A stretch of 64,000 bases of DNA from the NCBI GenBank assembly GCA_949300365.1, contig CASGEC010000006.1, positions 137,253-201,252 of the forward strand. Direction: 5' to 3'. Below the pieces are notes generated by a model that worked only from the letters and a program-made list of their open reading frames with translations, made no database searches and was not told where the DNA came from. Shown piece after piece: positions 41,685 to 48,603 of this stretch. Made by a program: the position numbers and the translations under genes. The stretch comes from an uncultured Bacillota bacterium (GTDB lineage Bacteria; Bacillota_I; Bacilli_A; RFN20; CAG-288). Position 1 is the first letter of the stretch. Each line of letters begins with the position of its first letter.

Positions 41685-44600
41685 ATGGATACTCCGACAA
41701 GCGAACAGACAATTCGAATCAAGGCGAGGATGGCACCGGGCATTTCCCTGCTCTCCGTTGTCAATGAGCCTTTGCCATGCATCGTTTCCTTGGCTATCGA
41801 GAACCTTTCCGACAAGGGCATAAAGGACCTTCGTCTGGAGATTTCCTTTGATCCGGCTATCGGCAAGGATCATACGATTACCTTCAACTATATCGGCTCG
41901 AAGTCGACGTCCTTGGTCAGTCCGAACGAACTGAAGAAACTTGTCCTCGACAAGGCCTATTTTGCTTCCCTTTCGGAGAAGGCAGAAGGCACGATCCATC
42001 TTAAGGCCTATGCCGAAGAAAGCACGGAACCGCTGAGCGAAGAGAACATCACCATTCCTCTTCTTCCATTTGGAACATGGGGAGGAATCGGCGAAATCAA
42101 GTATTCCCACTTGGCAAGTTTCGTTATGCCGACCATGCCTGTCGTCAAGAAGATGGCGATAAAGGCCGGCGATATCCTGCGCAACGAGAAGAAAGGAACG
42201 GCCTGTGGCTACCAGGAAGACACGCAAGGTGTCCTCGACCAAACGGAGTCGGTTTTCAAGGCGCTTCAGGGCCAGCAGCTGGAATATGTCGACCAAGATC
42301 GAAATCCTCAAGTAGGAGAGATTGTCCGCCTTCCGGAGCAGACCTATCGAGAGAAAAAGGGGACAGCGATCGATCTGGCTGTTCTCTTCGCCTCTGTCTT
42401 GGAGGATATCGGTCTCCACTCTGTCCTCTGCCTATGGGAAAGCACGGCCCTTGTCGGCTGTTTCCTCGAGGAGGACTTCTTCCTTGCCAACTCGATTGAG
42501 GACGGCTACAGCCATGTCCAAAGCCTCGAGCAGCAGGGAAAGCTTGTCCTTGTGGAAGTCAAAAGCCTTTCCAATCCCATCCTCTCCTTCAAGGAAGCCG
42601 TGGAGAAGGCAAAGGCCATTCTCGTCAAGCCCAAAGAATTCTTCCGGGCCATCGATGTCTCCATCTGCCGCGATAGCGGTATTTTCCCCCTTCCGCTCAA
42701 CTACGATACGGAGACGGGAGCGATAACCCTCGGGGACATCAACCAGTACCAGCGCACGCATGCCCATGACAGCTTCGATGAAACGATCCTCGCGCCGCGG
42801 GAAAGTCCGGCATCCGGCTTTGATATCTGGGAGAGGGAACTGCTCGACCTTTCCATGAACAATCCGCTCCTCAACGACCGAATCAAGCGCTCGATTTCCT
42901 TCCTCTGCAACGACACCGACTTCTTCACGAAATCCTTCAAGGACGACGACAAGTTCTCGATCGCCCAGAAACCCGTGACGATGACCGGCGAAATCGATCC
43001 GCTTCTTGTCTCCTCCGATAGCAAATACCAGGCTCTAAGCGAAAGTGCCATCAAGAGCAAGAAACTGATTTCGACGCAGAGCGATAGCGATCTTCAGGAC
43101 AGGCTCAAGAGGATCTACAGGAAATACCGGGACAACCTCAACGAGACTGGTTCCAATACGCTTTATCTTACGGTCGGACTTCTGAAATACTACGAGATCC
43201 AGAACCAGGACAACCTCGGCGCCTATCGTCTTGCTCCTATCGTCCTCATTCCGGTCGATATCGTAAGGGACGTGAAGGGAAAGAGCTATAACCTCCGCCT
43301 CCGGGACGAGGACTGGCTCTTGAACACGACCTTGATCGAATTCCTGAAGAAGGAAAGGAATCTGGACCTCTATGCCATCGAGAGCGTCCAGCCCGATAGC
43401 GACGGCCATCTGGATGTCCAGAAGATCCTGACGGCCTTTTCCAAGGCAATCCACGGCATCTCGGGCTGGTATTGCTATCGCAACTATCTCGGCCTTGGCT
43501 CTTTTGACTTCACCCACTACTGCATGTGGAGCGACCTACGAAACCGCCGGGACCAGATGGAAAGAAACCAGATCGTCAAATCCCTTGCGACTGGAAGGAA
43601 GGAGTGGTCGGAAAGCACATCCACCAACCCGATCAAGGAAAGCGACTGCTGCATCCCGCTTGTTGCCGACTCCAGCCAGATCGAGGCCATCAAGAAATGC
43701 GCCGATTCCAAGTCCTTCATCCTCTTTGGCCCTCCGGGAACGGGAAAGAGCCAGACGATCGTCAACATGATCGCCAACTCCCTCTTCCACGGAAAGAAAG
43801 TCCTCTTCGTCTCCGAGAAGCAGGCGGCCCTGGATGTCGTCTATAACCGTCTCAAGCGCATCGGACTGGATCCCTTCTGCCTCCAGCTTCATTCCGCAAA
43901 GGCCAGCAAGGGAAGCGTCCTTTCCCAGTTCTCCAATGCCTTCAAGCACGCCCAGCTGGGATCGCCGGCGGAATATGAAAGGACGAAGGAAGATATCGTC
44001 AACCTGCGCGCGAAACTGGAGTATGACATCGAGGTCTTCAATAGGAAGGCGCCCTGTTTCCTTTCCATCAACGATGCCCTCATCGGCTATGAATCGGTCA
44101 AGGCCTTCCGCTCCATTCCTTCCTTCACGGACGATTTCATCCGTTCCATGACCGAAGAGAAGTTCAAGAAGATAAACGACGTCACCGAAAGGATCGCCTA
44201 CTTGGAAGCCTATGGCCACTTCGGCGAATTCTACAACAACGATCTTGTCCCCTTAAGAGGACATGCCTATGGCTTGGAGAAAAGGGAGCAGGTCGGAAGC
44301 GCCGTCAAGGAACTGCTTAGGAAGGCCGTTTCCCTCTCCGGCGCCGTTAACAAGATCAAGAATACCTTCCGCCCTGTCTTTTCCCTCACTCGGGAGAACA
44401 CCGACGTCCTTGTCGCCTACTTGAATGCCTATCTTGTCCCTGAGGCGCCCCATCCTCTTTCCAATGCCATCCAGGATCTCTCCATCCGGGAAAGCGAGAA
44501 GGACATCAGGACATTCCTTGAAAAGCTACGGGAATACCAGGAGAAAAGGCGCGAAAAGATCCTTCCCTTCCTCTCCCCGCAGGCTTTGGATGACATCACC

Positions 44601-47505: not shown

Positions 47506-48603
47506 ATGGGAAAGCTTCTGGACCTTTTCGATGCCATGACGGAGGATCGTGACAAGAAGGTCCTCCTTCAGGCGGTCAACATCACGACCACATTGAACTA
47601 TTCCCTTTTTCGGGAAGAAGGAACAAATGTCTTTGTCCTGGACGGAAAAAGATACGAGATCCCCGACAACGCCACCCTCTATGTCCTGGAGGACCAGGTC
47701 TATGTCAACAACAGGACAGCCTTTCCCGTGTCCGAAAGCGAGGAGACGGACAACACCCCGACGGCAGTCGATCGCTTTCCGACGCTCCTTCTTCCCGAAA
47801 AAGCCCCTTCCGGAACAGGCCTTACCATCCTGAAGGCATGGCAGGCGGAAGAGAAGGATAGGCTTGATAAGCGCATCCCGATCTACATCTATCGCATCCG
47901 GTGCGGCAACCACATCCTCCGGGTCGAGTACTTTCGGCGGGAGAACAAGATGCAAAGGCGTTCAATCGTCAACTACGGCATGATCGAGATCTATGGGCGG
48001 AAGGAGGACGGGGACAGGGAAATCCTCGGCTTTGTCCGCAACACCATCGAACGGGCCACCAAGAGGGTCTACTTCCTGCCTTTCTATGACGGGGACAGTC
48101 TCTTCTTCTTCGGAAAGAGAAGAAAGATAACAAACGACAGGGACAAGCTCGGCGATCCAAAGTATTTCTTCGTCGAAAAAGGAATCCATCCCATCAAAAA
48201 ATACAAAGAGTTGTTTTTCACCTATCTTCGCAAGAGGATTCCCGAAATCGGATCACAGATGGGCTTGAACATGAACAAGTGGGAAATCAAGGTCTCCAAC
48301 TATCGGAGCATTTACGCCAGCAATGCCTACTATCAGAAGATCCTGCGGTTTGATTATCGGAACGCGGCCTACAGGCAAGCCATCATCGATGCCCTTATCG
48401 TCCATGAGCTCTGCCATTGCTATCATCATAACCACGGCAAGGCTTTCTATGCCCTGTGCGAGCGCTATTGGCCGAACTACGCCTATTACGATGCCCTGCT
48501 TGACGCCGGTGTCTTCAACGAAAAATGCCTCTCCCCGGAAGAGAGGGGCATTTATCTGCCTCCGGAGTACAAAAACCTCTGGGATGACGGGAAAAACGGA
48601 TAG
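47506..48603 (+). CDS. DUF45/COG1451 (YgjP-like) HExxH metal-dependent hydrolase with an unassigned roughly 120-aa N-terminus
   Basis: 365 aa. Starts 19 nt after the helicase stop, with TAAGGAG upstream. IIDALIVHELCHCYHHNHGKAFYALCERYWPNY has HELCH at 48403-48417. Upstream YRIRCGNHILRVEYFRR... fits the DUF45 N-terminal strands. Confidence 0.75.
   Translation: MGKLLDLFDAMTEDRDKKVLLQAVNITTTLNYSLFREEGTNVFVLDGKRYEIPDNATLYVLEDQVYVNNRTAFPVSESEETDNTPTAVDRFPTLLLPEKAPSGTGLTILKAWQAEEKDRLDKRIPIYIYRIRCGNHILRVEYFRRENKMQRRSIVNYGMIEIYGRKEDGDREILGFVRNTIERATKRVYFLPFYDGDSLFFFGKRRKITNDRDKLGDPKYFFVEKGIHPIKKYKELFFTYLRKRIPEIGSQMGLNMNKWEIKVSNYRSIYASNAYYQKILRFDYRNAAYRQAIIDALIVHELCHCYHHNHGKAFYALCERYWPNYAYYDALLDAGVFNEKCLSPEERGIYLPPEYKNLWDDGKNG

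What the first reader, a model, noticed from the sequence alone, without database searches (positions are those of the whole stretch)
41685..48603. Giant DUF4011 / Upf1-like SF1 helicase / REase-fold / DUF3320 protein paired with a DUF45 (COG1451) zincin: candidate undescribed nucleic-acid surveillance or defence module
Seen in sequence:
- A 5,802-nt ORF starts at ATG 41685, with GGGGGA 7 nt upstream and a TATAAT at 41649-41654.
- It is followed after 19 nt by a 365-codon ORF with its own TAAGGAG, so the two look co-transcribed.
- Motifs in order: KKGTAIDLAVLFASVLEDIGL (transglutaminase-like core with Ala where Cys is expected); the DUF4011 pattern (WERELLDLSMNNPLLN, GSNTLYLTVGLLKY, LAPIVLIPVDI); GPPGTGKS; DEASQ; WHYRSRSESLI; VQGDERDIIIFS; RRLNVAISRAR; a Vsr/DUF559-like fold (LGVMVEGE...LGWKTIRVYALDW); a DUF3320-like tail.
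- The partner carries VHELCHCYHHNHG.

Established knowledge:
- COG1112/Upf1-like helicases drive the Mokosh and Nhi-type defences.
- As I recall, COG1451 was flagged as a recurrent passenger of type I R-M and defence islands.
- This locus has no PLD nuclease, so it is not Mokosh. I know of no described system pairing a DUF4011-DUF3320 helicase with DUF45.

Inference: this is a helicase-nuclease sensor/effector plus a metallohydrolase. It could be an anti-phage or anti-plasmid module, or a DNA-protein-crosslink or RNA-surveillance module. The orphan antitoxins, orphan HTH and integrase stub nearby fit a defence or accessory island.
Basis: partly seen in the sequence, partly recalled or inferred. 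Interest (0 to 1): 0.85.

Follow-up and report, generated by a model that had tools for sequence, protein, structure and literature searches.

The report
Divergent ProA-like defence helicase plus zincin
The giant gene is a divergent member of an already catalogued anti-phage helicase-nuclease family (ProA / PDC-S37, related to Hhe), and the only unusual thing is that in this one uncultured Bacilli lineage its built-in cysteine-peptidase domain is catalytically dead and a fast-evolving zinc hydrolase gene has been added next to it.

Summary
Both ORFs, every quoted motif and all the domain calls are confirmed.

The interpretation as an undescribed module is only partly right.
- **Known family.** The 1,933-aa protein matches PADLOC PDC-S37 (E = 8.5e-297). 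It also aligns end to end with NCBIfam's 'anti-phage protein ProA' at 1,461 bits, just under the 1,500 cutoff. Typical family members score about 2,200. It is related to Hhe but is not Hhe.
- **Rare pairing.** The DUF45 partner is not a family feature. It is absent from all 34 full-length long-form loci with usable flanks in other species. It is conserved only in the window's own metagenome-only clade (7 of 8 sub-lineages, one secondary loss). A canonical DUF45 also sits upstream of one separate clade of short-form helicases.
- **No defence island.** The flanking genes are housekeeping genes in conserved order.

New findings:
- The family's N-terminus is a β-sandwich plus a transglutaminase-like Cys/His/acid core, intact in 141 of 167 proteins.
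- That dyad is lost throughout the window clade, yet the domain stays under purifying selection.
- The partner is a complete DUF45 domain with a unique ~130-aa extension. Its nearest relatives are housekeeping paralogues.
- DUF45 adjacency was seen only where the cis peptidase is dead or absent. This rests on two events and is not significant.

Verdict: a new variant of a known kind, of moderate interest.

The parts
41649..41654 (+). TATAAT hexamer upstream of the helicase gene. It is a possible -10 element, but no properly spaced -35 is present.
   Evidence: Sequence. The promoter scan calls no site here.
41672..41677 (+). GGGGGA ribosome-binding site, 7 nt before the ATG
41685..47486 (+). 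ProA-like / PDC-S37-like helicase-nuclease gene (1,933 aa)
41712..42062 (+). N-terminal Ig/CARDB-like beta-sandwich (aa 10-126)
   Evidence: AlphaFold2 model with pLDDT 86 and pTM 0.84. Foldseek hits to CARDB and to the beta-sandwich domains of C5a peptidase and factor XIII.
42102..42734 (+). Transglutaminase-like (papain-fold) core, aa ~140-350. It is catalytically degenerate: A228 replaces the family Cys, T254 replaces the His, and the acidic E291 is kept.
   Evidence: triad intact in 141 of 167 relatives. Pfam DUF553/Transglut_core hit in homologue P0055. Foldseek hits to TG2, TG3, FXIII and 3kd4. dN/dS 0.087.
42837..43346 (+). DUF4011 domain (aa 385-554)
   Evidence: Pfam E = 3e-32
43668..46385 (+). 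Upf1-like SF1B helicase core (aa 662-1567) with a ~550-aa insertion. Motifs: Walker A GPPGTGKS (43728-43751), DEASQ (45648-45662), GDSNQLPP, VQGDERD, RRLNVAISRAR.
   Evidence: Pfam AAA_11/AAA_12. Motifs invariant in the family alignment. Nearest solved structures are IGHMBP2, Sen1 and Upf1.
46530..46802 (+). Vsr/DUF559-like PD-(D/E)xK nuclease, REase_MTES_1575 (aa 1616-1706). The clade has 'VEGE' where the family has 'xDGx'.
   Evidence: Pfam 53 bits. Alignment.
46986..47105 (+). DUF3320 segment (aa 1768-1807) within the conserved C-terminal tail
   Evidence: Pfam 26.0 bits against a cutoff of 25
47488..47494 (+). TAAGGAG ribosome-binding site of the partner, inside the 19-nt intergenic gap. 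No terminator is called between the genes.
47506..48603 (+). Partner gene: an atypical DUF45/YgjP-like zincin (365 aa)
   Evidence: Pfam PF01863 68.3 bits against a cutoff of 26. Homologues.
47506..47907 (+). Beta-rich N-terminal extension of the partner (aa 1-134), restricted to this clade and one further cluster
   Evidence: Among 1.84 billion cluster representatives only 2 share it. No Pfam hit. AF2 predicts beta strands. dN/dS 0.18-0.26.
47908..48525 (+). Complete DUF45 hydrolase domain (aa ~135-340). The invariant HExxHxxxxxH (H300, E301, H304, H310) lies at 48403-48435.
   Evidence: Canonical ~230-aa DUF45 proteins align to aa 135-338. The motif is invariant in 8 clade members. dN/dS 0.07.

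Best explanation
The locus encodes a divergent member of the ProA / PDC-S37 family. These are ~1,900-aa single-polypeptide proteins related to the validated Hhe defence protein.

Their architecture is: N-terminal beta-sandwich, transglutaminase-like peptidase-fold domain, DUF4011, Upf1-like SF1B helicase, Vsr/DUF559-like nuclease, DUF3320 tail.

Inferred mechanism, taken from the family and from Hhe: the helicase module engages and translocates on invading nucleic acid, and the PD-(D/E)xK nuclease cuts it. The N-terminal and DUF4011/DUF3320 modules would sense or regulate.

In one vertically inherited lineage of uncultured Bacilli two things happened on the same stem branch. First, the Cys-His dyad of the fused peptidase-fold domain was lost, while the domain was kept under purifying selection, presumably as a scaffold or binding module. 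Second, a DUF45 zinc hydrolase was placed immediately downstream in the same operon. Its nearest relatives are housekeeping paralogues, and it carries a new ~130-aa N-terminal extension.

My preferred reading is that this zincin is a lineage-specific accessory subunit. It would supply in trans the hydrolytic (probably peptidase) step that other family members perform in cis with the Cys-His domain, for example proteolytic activation or turnover of the helicase-nuclease, or removal of a protein from DNA.

Shown: family membership, architecture, loss of the dyad, lineage-restricted conserved adjacency, purifying selection.

Inferred: the defence role in this organism, physical or functional coupling of the two proteins, and the substitution of one peptidase by the other.
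For: Family:
- PADLOC PDC-S37 E = 8.5e-297 over aa 379-1916.
- NCBIfam ProA 1,460.9 bits over aa 26-1898, matching profile positions 5-1903 of 1903.
- Typical long forms score ~2,200 bits and the sister P0009 scores 1,472.
- Hhe is a single-gene defence that is abolished by a mutation in its Vsr nuclease domain (bioRxiv 10.1101/2022.06.16.496414).

Catalytic state:
- Helicase and nuclease motifs are intact.
- The N-domain fold is supported by the AF2 model (pLDDT 86), by Foldseek hits to transglutaminases and 3kd4, and by a Pfam DUF553 hit in P0055.
- The triad is intact in 141 of 167 proteins. It is lost with varied substitutions in P0001-P0008 and retained in the sister P0009.

Pairing:
- A DUF45 gene lies directly downstream, with a 0-70 nt gap or a stop/start overlap, in the window, L085, L089, L087, L001-3, L092 and L093.
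- It is absent in P0009.
- Independently, a canonical DUF45 lies on the same strand upstream of short-form helicases that lack the N-domain (directly upstream in L012 and L036, about 1.8 kb upstream with one intervening ORF in L032). No R-M genes are nearby.
- No DUF45 neighbour was found in any of 26 intact-triad long-form loci.

Partner:
- HExxHxxxxxH is invariant.
- dN/dS is 0.07-0.26.
- The N-extension is essentially unique to this context.

Precedent: helicase-controlled proteases act in defence systems, and an ancestral catalytic motif is lost after a new enzymatic module is gained (Science 2025, PMC12799240).
Against: - P0005 (L091) has lost the dyad and also lacks the DUF45 gene, yet keeps an intact 1,935-aa helicase ORF. 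The zincin is therefore dispensable for retaining the helicase.
- Eight other long-form loci with degenerate triads, and six of nine short-form loci, have no DUF45.
- There are only two independent association events. On a rough count of lineages (2 of ~13 without an active peptidase against 0 of 26 with one) my hand estimate of Fisher's p is about 0.1.
- Adjacency inside the window clade may partly reflect shared ancestry, because the flanking synteny is conserved too.
- The biochemical activity of DUF45 is not established. From my own recollection, E. coli YgjP has been annotated as a nucleotide pyrophosphatase.
- No experiment links any ProA peptidase-fold domain to function.
- I could not find the ProA primary paper.
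- The gene sits among housekeeping genes, not in a defence island.
- The window protein falls below NCBI's ProA cutoff.
Confidence: 0.5

Rival explanations
1. The DUF45 gene is only a neighbour. A paralogue of a housekeeping DUF45 gene landed next to the helicase in an ancestor of this clade and has been carried along by vertical inheritance. It has no functional coupling to the helicase, which works alone like other ProA/Hhe proteins.
For: - No DUF45 neighbour in any of 34 long-form loci elsewhere.
- Secondary loss in P0005 with the helicase intact.
- The nearest canonical relatives lie in a DUF45-SpoU-IleRS-LspA-RluD housekeeping operon.
- Flanking synteny is conserved throughout the clade, so conserved adjacency is expected from ancestry alone.
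Against: - Tight same-strand spacing, including stop/start overlap, is maintained while the partner has diverged to 48-61% identity.
- A new N-terminal extension is found essentially only in this context.
- A second, independent DUF45-helicase adjacency exists in a different arrangement.
- The gain coincides with loss of the dyad on the same branch.
Confidence: 0.25
2. Housekeeping genome maintenance, not immunity. The helicase-nuclease and the SprT/WLM-like zincin together would resolve DNA-protein crosslinks, stalled complexes or aberrant nucleic-acid structures in the host's own chromosome.
For: - The locus is vertically inherited at a fixed chromosomal position among housekeeping genes.
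- It is under strong purifying selection.
- A large DUF4011 gene is a core gene in every P. aeruginosa isolate (PMC10250203).
- The partner has weak sub-threshold similarity to WLM/SprT-type zincins.
Against: - The family is curated as anti-phage (ProA) and is a PADLOC candidate.
- The relative Hhe is experimentally validated.
- Family members occur on mobilizable Acinetobacter plasmids.
- The scan of species-representative genomes returned no relative above ~42% identity for this lineage.
- The partner evolves much faster than GuaA in the same genomes, 61% against 93% identity.
- WLM and SprT scores are below their cutoffs.
Confidence: 0.15
3. The zincin is a safety or turnover factor, not a replacement effector. 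It would degrade or restrain the helicase-nuclease to prevent self-damage, like an antitoxin or restriction alleviation, or it would inactivate a phage-encoded inhibitor. This role would be unrelated to the dead cysteine-peptidase domain.
For: - The partner evolves fast while keeping its active site. That pattern fits an interface under conflict.
- The partner is dispensable in one lineage.
Against: There is no direct evidence. This reading does not explain why DUF45 adjacency was seen only where the cis peptidase is dead or absent, although that pattern is itself not statistically secure.
Confidence: 0.1

Closest known systems
ProA (NCBIfam NF058533, 'anti-phage protein ProA')
   Same: The alignment is end to end (aa 26-1898 against profile 5-1903 of 1903), with the same domain order including the N-terminal beta-sandwich and transglutaminase-like domain, and the same length class.
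   Different: The score is 1,461 bits, under the 1,500 equivalog cutoff, while typical members score ~2,200. The Cys-His dyad is lost. The nuclease has 'EG' where the family has 'DG'. A DUF45 gene is attached. I could not locate the primary literature for ProA, so I do not know what was shown experimentally.
PDC-S37 (PADLOC-DB v2 phage-defence candidate, single gene)
   Same: E = 8.5e-297 over profile positions 10-1534 of 1550, which corresponds to DUF4011 through the C-terminal tail.
   Different: The PDC-S37 profile does not cover the ~380-aa N-terminal domain. PDC-S37 is a candidate, not a validated system, and it has no partner gene.
Hhe (Gao et al. 2020; NCBIfam NF042953)
   Same: A DUF4011 + SF1 helicase + Vsr-like nuclease single-protein defence. 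There is strong partial similarity: PADLOC E = 3.7e-127 and NCBIfam 598 bits.
   Different: The score is far below the Hhe cutoff of 2,000 bits. The match covers only the C-terminal ~700 residues. The N-terminal architecture is different.
Nuclease-protease pairs in Hachiman/AVAST/Lamassu (Science 2025, PMC12799240)
   Same: A peptidase module is combined with a helicase/NTPase-controlled nuclease system, and the ancestral catalytic motif decays after a new enzymatic module is acquired.
   Different: The protein families are unrelated: trypsin-like protease and MBL-fold pro-nuclease there, DUF45 zincin, papain-fold domain and PD-(D/E)xK nuclease here. No proteolytic activation has been shown for ProA.
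SprT / Wss1 (WLM) / SPRTN DNA-dependent metalloproteases
   Same: HExxH zincin with weak profile similarity (WLM 23.2 bits; SprT-like hits in the canonical DUF45s), and an association with DNA-acting machinery.
   Different: Scores are below the Pfam cutoffs. No DNA-binding domain was demonstrated; the OB-like Foldseek hits are not significant.
Mokosh
   Same: The Upf1-like helicase core gives partial MkoA/MkoC hits.
   Different: There is no PLD nuclease, the hits cover only helicase motifs, and the architecture differs.

Membership tests
ProA (NF058533) | Whole-protein HMM score at or above the curated equivalog cutoff (1,500 bits) | tested here: not met
   1,460.9 bits. The sister P0009 scores 1,471.9, and typical members score 2,182-2,229.
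ProA (NF058533) | End-to-end collinear architecture: N-domain, DUF4011, SF1 helicase, Vsr-like nuclease, DUF3320 tail | tested here: met
   aa 26-1898 match profile positions 5-1903 of 1903. Pfam domains appear in the same order. 17-sequence alignment.
ProA (NF058533) | Conserved Cys/His/acid triad in the N-terminal transglutaminase-like domain. This is a family consensus derived here, not a published criterion. | tested here: not met
   The window has A228 and T254. The triad is intact in 141 of 167 relatives.
ProA (NF058533) | Experimentally shown anti-phage activity | not testable with these tools
   Primary paper not found in 10 literature searches.
PDC-S37 (PADLOC) | Near full-length match to the PDC-S37 profile | tested here: met
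   E = 8.5e-297, 986 bits, profile positions 10-1534 of 1550.
Hhe (NF042953) | Whole-protein score at or above 2,000 bits | tested here: not met
   597.7 bits, with only aa 1018-1735 aligned.
Upf1-like SF1B helicases | Walker A, DEAxQ, GDxxQLPP, QGxExD and the arginine finger RxxNVAxSRAR | tested here: met
   All are present and invariant in the family alignment. PDB sequence hits to IGHMBP2, Sen1 and Upf1.
Vsr/DUF559-like PD-(D/E)xK nuclease (REase_MTES_1575) | Pfam match above cutoff and conserved acidic core | tested here: met
   53 bits against a cutoff of 38.2. D1671 is invariant. The family 'DG' is 'EG' in the whole clade, a conservative change.
DUF45 / YgjP-like (PF01863) | Pfam match above cutoff with an intact HExxH...H metal site | tested here: met
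   68.3 bits against a cutoff of 26, although only profile positions 108-205 are matched. Full-domain correspondence is shown by phmmer alignments to canonical DUF45s over aa 135-338. The motif is invariant.
SprT-like / WLM zincins | Pfam score above the gathering cutoff | tested here: not met
   WLM 23.2 bits against a cutoff of 26.
Mokosh | MkoA-type helicase together with a PLD-nuclease protein or domain | tested here: not met
   Only partial helicase-core hits. No PLD domain in Pfam results.
Defence island context | Neighbouring genes belong to known defence systems or mobile elements | tested here: not met
   Among the ORFs examined next to the locus, PADLOC matched only the generic HTH protein, and the flanks are housekeeping genes. 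One relative, L087, has AbiEi/AbiEii inserted nearby.

The most novel reading that the evidence does not exclude
Peptidase or hydrolase activity may be an integral and interchangeable module of ProA-type helicase-nuclease immunity. Most members carry it in cis as a transglutaminase-like Cys-His domain. Lineages that inactivate or delete that domain can recruit a DUF45 zincin in trans: downstream with a new docking extension in the window clade, upstream in canonical form in a short-form clade. If true, this would give DUF45/COG1451 its first defined functional context, as a peptidase subunit of translocase-nuclease defence enzymes. It would also predict proteolytic control of ProA.
Probability: 0.25. 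Interest if true: 0.6.

Novelty: new variant of a known kind. Interest (0 to 1): 0.4.

Why it matters
The helicase itself adds a divergent, metagenome-only branch to a family that is already catalogued as anti-phage.

The useful part is comparative. The analysis shows that the ProA family's unannotated N-terminus is a beta-sandwich plus a transglutaminase-like Cys-His domain that is conserved in most members. It also identifies natural 'experiments' in which that domain is dead or missing. In two of those lineages a DUF45 zincin sits next to the gene.

This gives a concrete, cheap hypothesis for two poorly understood elements: the role of the peptidase-fold domain in ProA, and the function of DUF45/COG1451. 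Point mutants and partner deletions would test it.

If the link is not functional, the locus is simply an ordinary family member with an incidental neighbour.

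Tried and rejected
1. **ProA primary paper.** Ten full-text literature searches for ProA, PDC-S37, DUF4011, DUF3320, DUF45, COG1451 and domain-architecture terms found no paper that describes ProA, and nothing on DUF45 in defence. Two candidate papers were opened and were irrelevant.
2. **Obligate two-gene system.** Rejected. No DUF45 neighbour in any of 34 long-form loci elsewhere, and one secondary loss inside the clade.
3. **The DUF45 belongs to a neighbouring type I R-M system.** Rejected. The genes upstream of the canonical DUF45-helicase pairs are an AMP-binding ligase, MatE, an FkbM methyltransferase and an acyltransferase.
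4. **The 244-aa gene downstream of the sister helicase P0009 is a diverged partner.** Rejected. There is no similarity and no HExxH.
5. **Defence-island context.** Rejected.
6. **Strict compensation (loss of the dyad always comes with a DUF45).** Rejected. Eight degenerate long-form loci and six short-form loci have none.
7. **Partner fold.** The Foldseek search was not significant and gave only weak OB/HIN-like hits. PDB sequence searches for the N-domain and the partner were empty.
8. **hhalign against three canonical DUF45s** aligned only the catalytic half. The exhaustive phmmer search later showed that the whole DUF45 domain is present.
9. **Rfam scan of the window:** no RNA families.
10. 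**Context of P0128,** the only distant full-length partner homologue: its contig is too short (1.65 kb), and its upstream fragment is not a helicase C-terminus.

Full report
**1. Observation**

The two ORFs are exactly as described. ORF A runs 41685-47486 on the + strand (5,802 nt, 1,933 codons, one terminal stop). ORF B runs 47506-48603 (365 codons). A 19-nt gap carrying TAAGGAG separates them.

GGGGGA lies 7 nt before the ATG, and TATAAT is at 41649-41654. The closest -35-like hexamer is 23 nt upstream, and the consensus scan calls no promoter there, so the promoter is only a possibility. No terminator-like site lies between the genes. Co-transcription is therefore plausible but was not shown. 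An upstream in-frame ATG at 41550 exists, and one database gene call of 1,978 aa (P0001) is consistent with it. Homologues of ~1,930 aa support 41685 as the start.

**2. What the large protein is**

Pfam confirms DUF4011, AAA_11/AAA_12, REase_MTES_1575 and DUF3320 in the stated order. The protein is not unclassified:
- PADLOC's candidate PDC-S37 matches at E = 8.5e-297 over residues 379-1916.
- NCBIfam's equivalog model 'anti-phage protein ProA' aligns over residues 26-1898, covering profile positions 5-1903 of 1903. The score is 1,460.9 bits against a cutoff of 1,500.
- Four diverse ~1,930-1,990-aa homologues (from Kyrpidia, Clostridium, Bacteroides and an unnamed metagenomic source) score 2,182-2,229 bits. 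The window's sister lineage P0009 scores 1,472.

The window protein therefore belongs to a divergent branch of the ProA family that falls just outside NCBI's naming threshold.

Hhe (Gao 2020) is a validated single-gene defence whose Vsr-domain mutant is inactive. It is a relative but not the same family: the score is 598 bits against a cutoff of 2,000, over the C-terminal third only. The Mokosh hits are partial helicase-core matches.

The helicase motifs are intact. The nuclease core carries a conservative D-to-E change that is shared by the whole clade. The nearest solved structures are the eukaryotic Upf1-like helicases IGHMBP2, Sen1 and Upf1. I could not find the ProA primary paper in ten searches, so what was shown experimentally for ProA is unknown to me.

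**3. The N-terminal 380 residues**

This region lies outside the PDC-S37 profile and has no Pfam hit in the window protein. It is nevertheless conserved across the family.

An AlphaFold2 model built on 14 sequences is confident (pLDDT 86, pTM 0.84). It shows a beta-sandwich (aa 10-126) followed by an alpha/beta core. Foldseek returns CARDB/Ig-like domains for the first part. It also returns transglutaminases (factor XIII, TG2, TG3) and the TGase-like 'putative protease' 3kd4. The N-domain of homologue P0055 passes the Pfam cutoff for the transglutaminase-like domain DUF553.

The family consensus carries a Cys/His/acid triad (GTC[LI]D ... GHAF[AV]G ... [LV]E.T). It is intact in 141 of 167 proteins examined.

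In the window protein the Cys is Ala228 and the His is Thr254. All members of its clade (P0001-P0008, 65-100% identical) have lost both residues, with different substitutions in different members (A/T, A/Q, G/K, A/K, P/S, V/K). The sister P0009 (58% identical) keeps Cys and His.

The dead domain is still constrained. Between the window and L085 its dN/dS is 0.087, against 0.05 for the rest of the protein. dS is close to saturation, so these ratios are approximate.

**4. The partner**

Pfam sees only the C-terminal half of YgjP-like/DUF45. An exhaustive phmmer search of 1.84 billion cluster representatives shows more. Canonical ~230-aa DUF45 proteins align to partner residues ~135-338 over nearly their whole length. 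Only two clusters, its own and P0128 at 40% identity, share the first ~130 residues. The partner is therefore a complete DUF45 domain plus a novel beta-rich N-terminal extension.

HExxHxxxxxH is invariant in eight clade members. dN/dS is 0.07 for the DUF45 domain and 0.18-0.26 for the extension.

The partner diverges much faster than the helicase or housekeeping genes:

| Compared with the window | Helicase identity | Partner identity | GuaA identity |
|---|---|---|---|
| L085 | 92% | 81% | not available |
| L089 | 86% | 57% | not available |
| L001 | 68% | 48% | not measured |
| L086 | not visible (contig end) | 61% | 93% |

Its closest canonical relatives (P0129, P0131) sit in a housekeeping operon: DUF45-SpoU methylase-hydrolase-IleRS-LspA-RluD. 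This suggests the partner arose from a housekeeping paralogue. Foldseek on the moderate-quality partner model (pLDDT 68) found nothing significant.

**5. Is the pair conserved?**

*Inside the clade: mostly yes.* A DUF45 gene lies directly downstream on the same strand, with 0-70 nt spacing and in several cases a stop/start overlap. This holds for the window, L085, L089/L090 (P0002), L087 (P0004, where the helicase copy is truncated), L001-3 (P0007), L092 (P0006) and L093 (P0008).

It is absent, with no remnant, in L091 (P0005), which nevertheless keeps an intact 1,935-aa helicase. It is also absent in L004 (P0009). A neighbour-joining tree gives ((((P1,P2,P3),P4),P5),(P8,(P7,P6))),P9. On this tree the P0005 case is a secondary loss. 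The gain of the zincin and the loss of the dyad both map to the stem after P0009 split off.

*Outside the clade: no.* I retrieved 80 loci from 185,579 species-representative genomes and scanned them with a DUF45 HMM, then again with a broader HMM built from ~150 diverse DUF45s. Counting full-length genes with at least 1.5 kb of flank on both sides:

| Helicase type | Loci | With a DUF45 neighbour |
|---|---|---|
| Long form, intact triad | 26 | 0 |
| Long form, degenerate triad | 8 | 0 |
| Short form (no N-domain) | 9 | 3 |
| More distant relatives | 18 | 0 |

The three positives (L012, L032, L036) form one clade about 45% diverged. They carry a full-length canonical DUF45 (Pfam E = 1e-43 to 1e-49) on the same strand upstream of the helicase: directly upstream in L012 and L036, and about 1.8 kb upstream with one intervening ORF in L032. 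There are no R-M genes nearby.

So there are two independent associations, and both are in backgrounds where the cis peptidase is dead or absent. With roughly 13 such lineages against 26 intact ones, my hand estimate of Fisher's p is about 0.1. This is suggestive, not established.

**6. Context**

The flanks are a HisJ-family histidinol phosphatase (PHP), an Opp-type ABC transporter, an M6-metalloprotease-like protein, a double XRE-HTH regulator followed by a ~1,190-aa fn3-containing protein, aldehyde and iron alcohol dehydrogenases, and GuaA. Among the nine neighbouring ORFs scanned, PADLOC matched only the generic HTH protein.

The same neighbours, in similar order, flank the gene in relatives down to 58% identity. 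The locus is therefore vertically inherited at a fixed chromosomal site in an uncultured Bacilli lineage, whose nearest named GuaA relatives are 'Bacilli bacterium' at ~70% identity. This does not fit a defence island.

Some variability exists just downstream of the pair: AbiEi/AbiEii in L087 and an AAA_14 gene in L085. Family members also occur on mobilizable Acinetobacter plasmids, without a DUF45. A large DUF4011 gene is a core gene flanking a defence hotspot in P. aeruginosa (PMC10250203).

**7. Mechanism**

*Shown.* Membership of a curated anti-phage family at the architecture level. Intact ATPase and nuclease motifs. A dead but constrained peptidase-fold domain. A constrained, active-site-intact and fast-evolving zincin that is tightly linked in most of the clade.

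*Inferred.* The helicase-nuclease acts on invading nucleic acid as Hhe-type proteins are thought to. The zincin is an accessory that provides in trans a hydrolytic step which other members perform in cis. There is a precedent for helicase-controlled proteases in defence, and for decay of an ancestral catalytic motif after a new module is gained, in the nuclease-protease pairs of Hachiman and AVAST (PMC12799240).

*Rivals.* An incidental neighbour, a housekeeping repair function, and a safety or turnover role. P0005, which keeps the helicase without the zincin, shows that the zincin is not essential for retaining the helicase.

**8. Verdict**

The helicase is a divergent member of a known family, so it is not an undescribed system. 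The DUF45 pairing is real but restricted to this lineage. The dead cis peptidase together with a trans zincin is a new variant worth a simple experimental test. Interest is moderate (0.4).

Noticed in passing
window 49443-53798 (+): A double XRE-type HTH protein (255 aa) is followed after 15 nt by a ~1,190-aa protein whose only hit is a faint fn3 match. The same two-gene unit (237-264 aa HTH x2 plus a 1,108-1,190 aa protein) recurs next to the helicase locus in relatives L001, L086, L089 and L091 (and, cut by the locus end, L092). Its function is unknown.
   Followed up: partly
window 40697-41500 (+): A 267-aa ORF with a lipoprotein-type signal peptide (…LFYASC) lies between the PHP gene and the helicase. 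It has no Pfam, NCBIfam or PADLOC hit and is conserved only in the closest relative L085 (66% identity). It overlaps the 5' end of the longest PHP ORF on the other strand, so one of the two start sites is probably shorter than listed.
   Followed up: partly
window 35309-39039 (+): Two large ORFs lie upstream of the PHP gene. The 584-aa one has a sub-threshold M6 (immune inhibitor A-like) metalloprotease domain. The 541-aa one has no hit; a 539-aa gene occupies the same position in L089/L090.
   Followed up: no
L087 830-7436: In one relative the helicase is reduced to an 876-aa C-terminal fragment (99.5% identical to full-length P0004 from another contig) preceded by a 302-aa ORF with no hits. 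The DUF45 gene is intact, and an AbiEi/AbiEii toxin-antitoxin pair is inserted just downstream. This may be decay, or a variable spot beside the locus.
   Followed up: partly
L097 4717-11547; L102 4799-11468: The canonical DUF45 proteins closest to the partner sit in a conserved housekeeping operon. The DUF45 gene overlaps a SpoU-family RNA methylase gene, followed by a hydrolase, IleRS, LspA and an RluD-type pseudouridine synthase. This hints at an RNA- or translation-related role for that DUF45 subfamily.
   Followed up: no
L094 (NZ_OY725931.1, Bacteroides finegoldii 'plasmid 29'): This PLSDB 'plasmid' carries rpsA, glutamine synthetase III and bglX and is typed non-mobilizable, so it may be a chromosomal fragment. 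Its ProA-family gene is convergent with a 'reverse transcriptase family protein' gene, possibly a small defence cluster.
   Followed up: no
genome loci L010, L042, L046/L069, L054, L071: Short forms that lack the whole N-terminal domain (the PDC-S37-type architecture) have arisen several times independently from long-form ProA-like ancestors. Each is most similar to a different long-form protein.
   Followed up: partly
genome loci L013, L014, L029, L043, L050, L056: A group of uncultured-Clostridia long forms has a weakly scoring N-domain in which the Cys/His positions are replaced (L/D, R/E, S/S, P/R, A/E, I/E). None has a DUF45 neighbour. This is an independent case of a degenerate peptidase-fold domain.
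   Followed up: partly
window 48604-49442: The ~840-nt stretch between the partner and the HTH gene holds a 90-aa minus-strand ORF (48977-49249) at the position where relatives encode a 69-77-aa protein, which carries a weak HTH_11 hit in L001, L085 and L089. The window ORF itself has no significant family hit.
   Followed up: no
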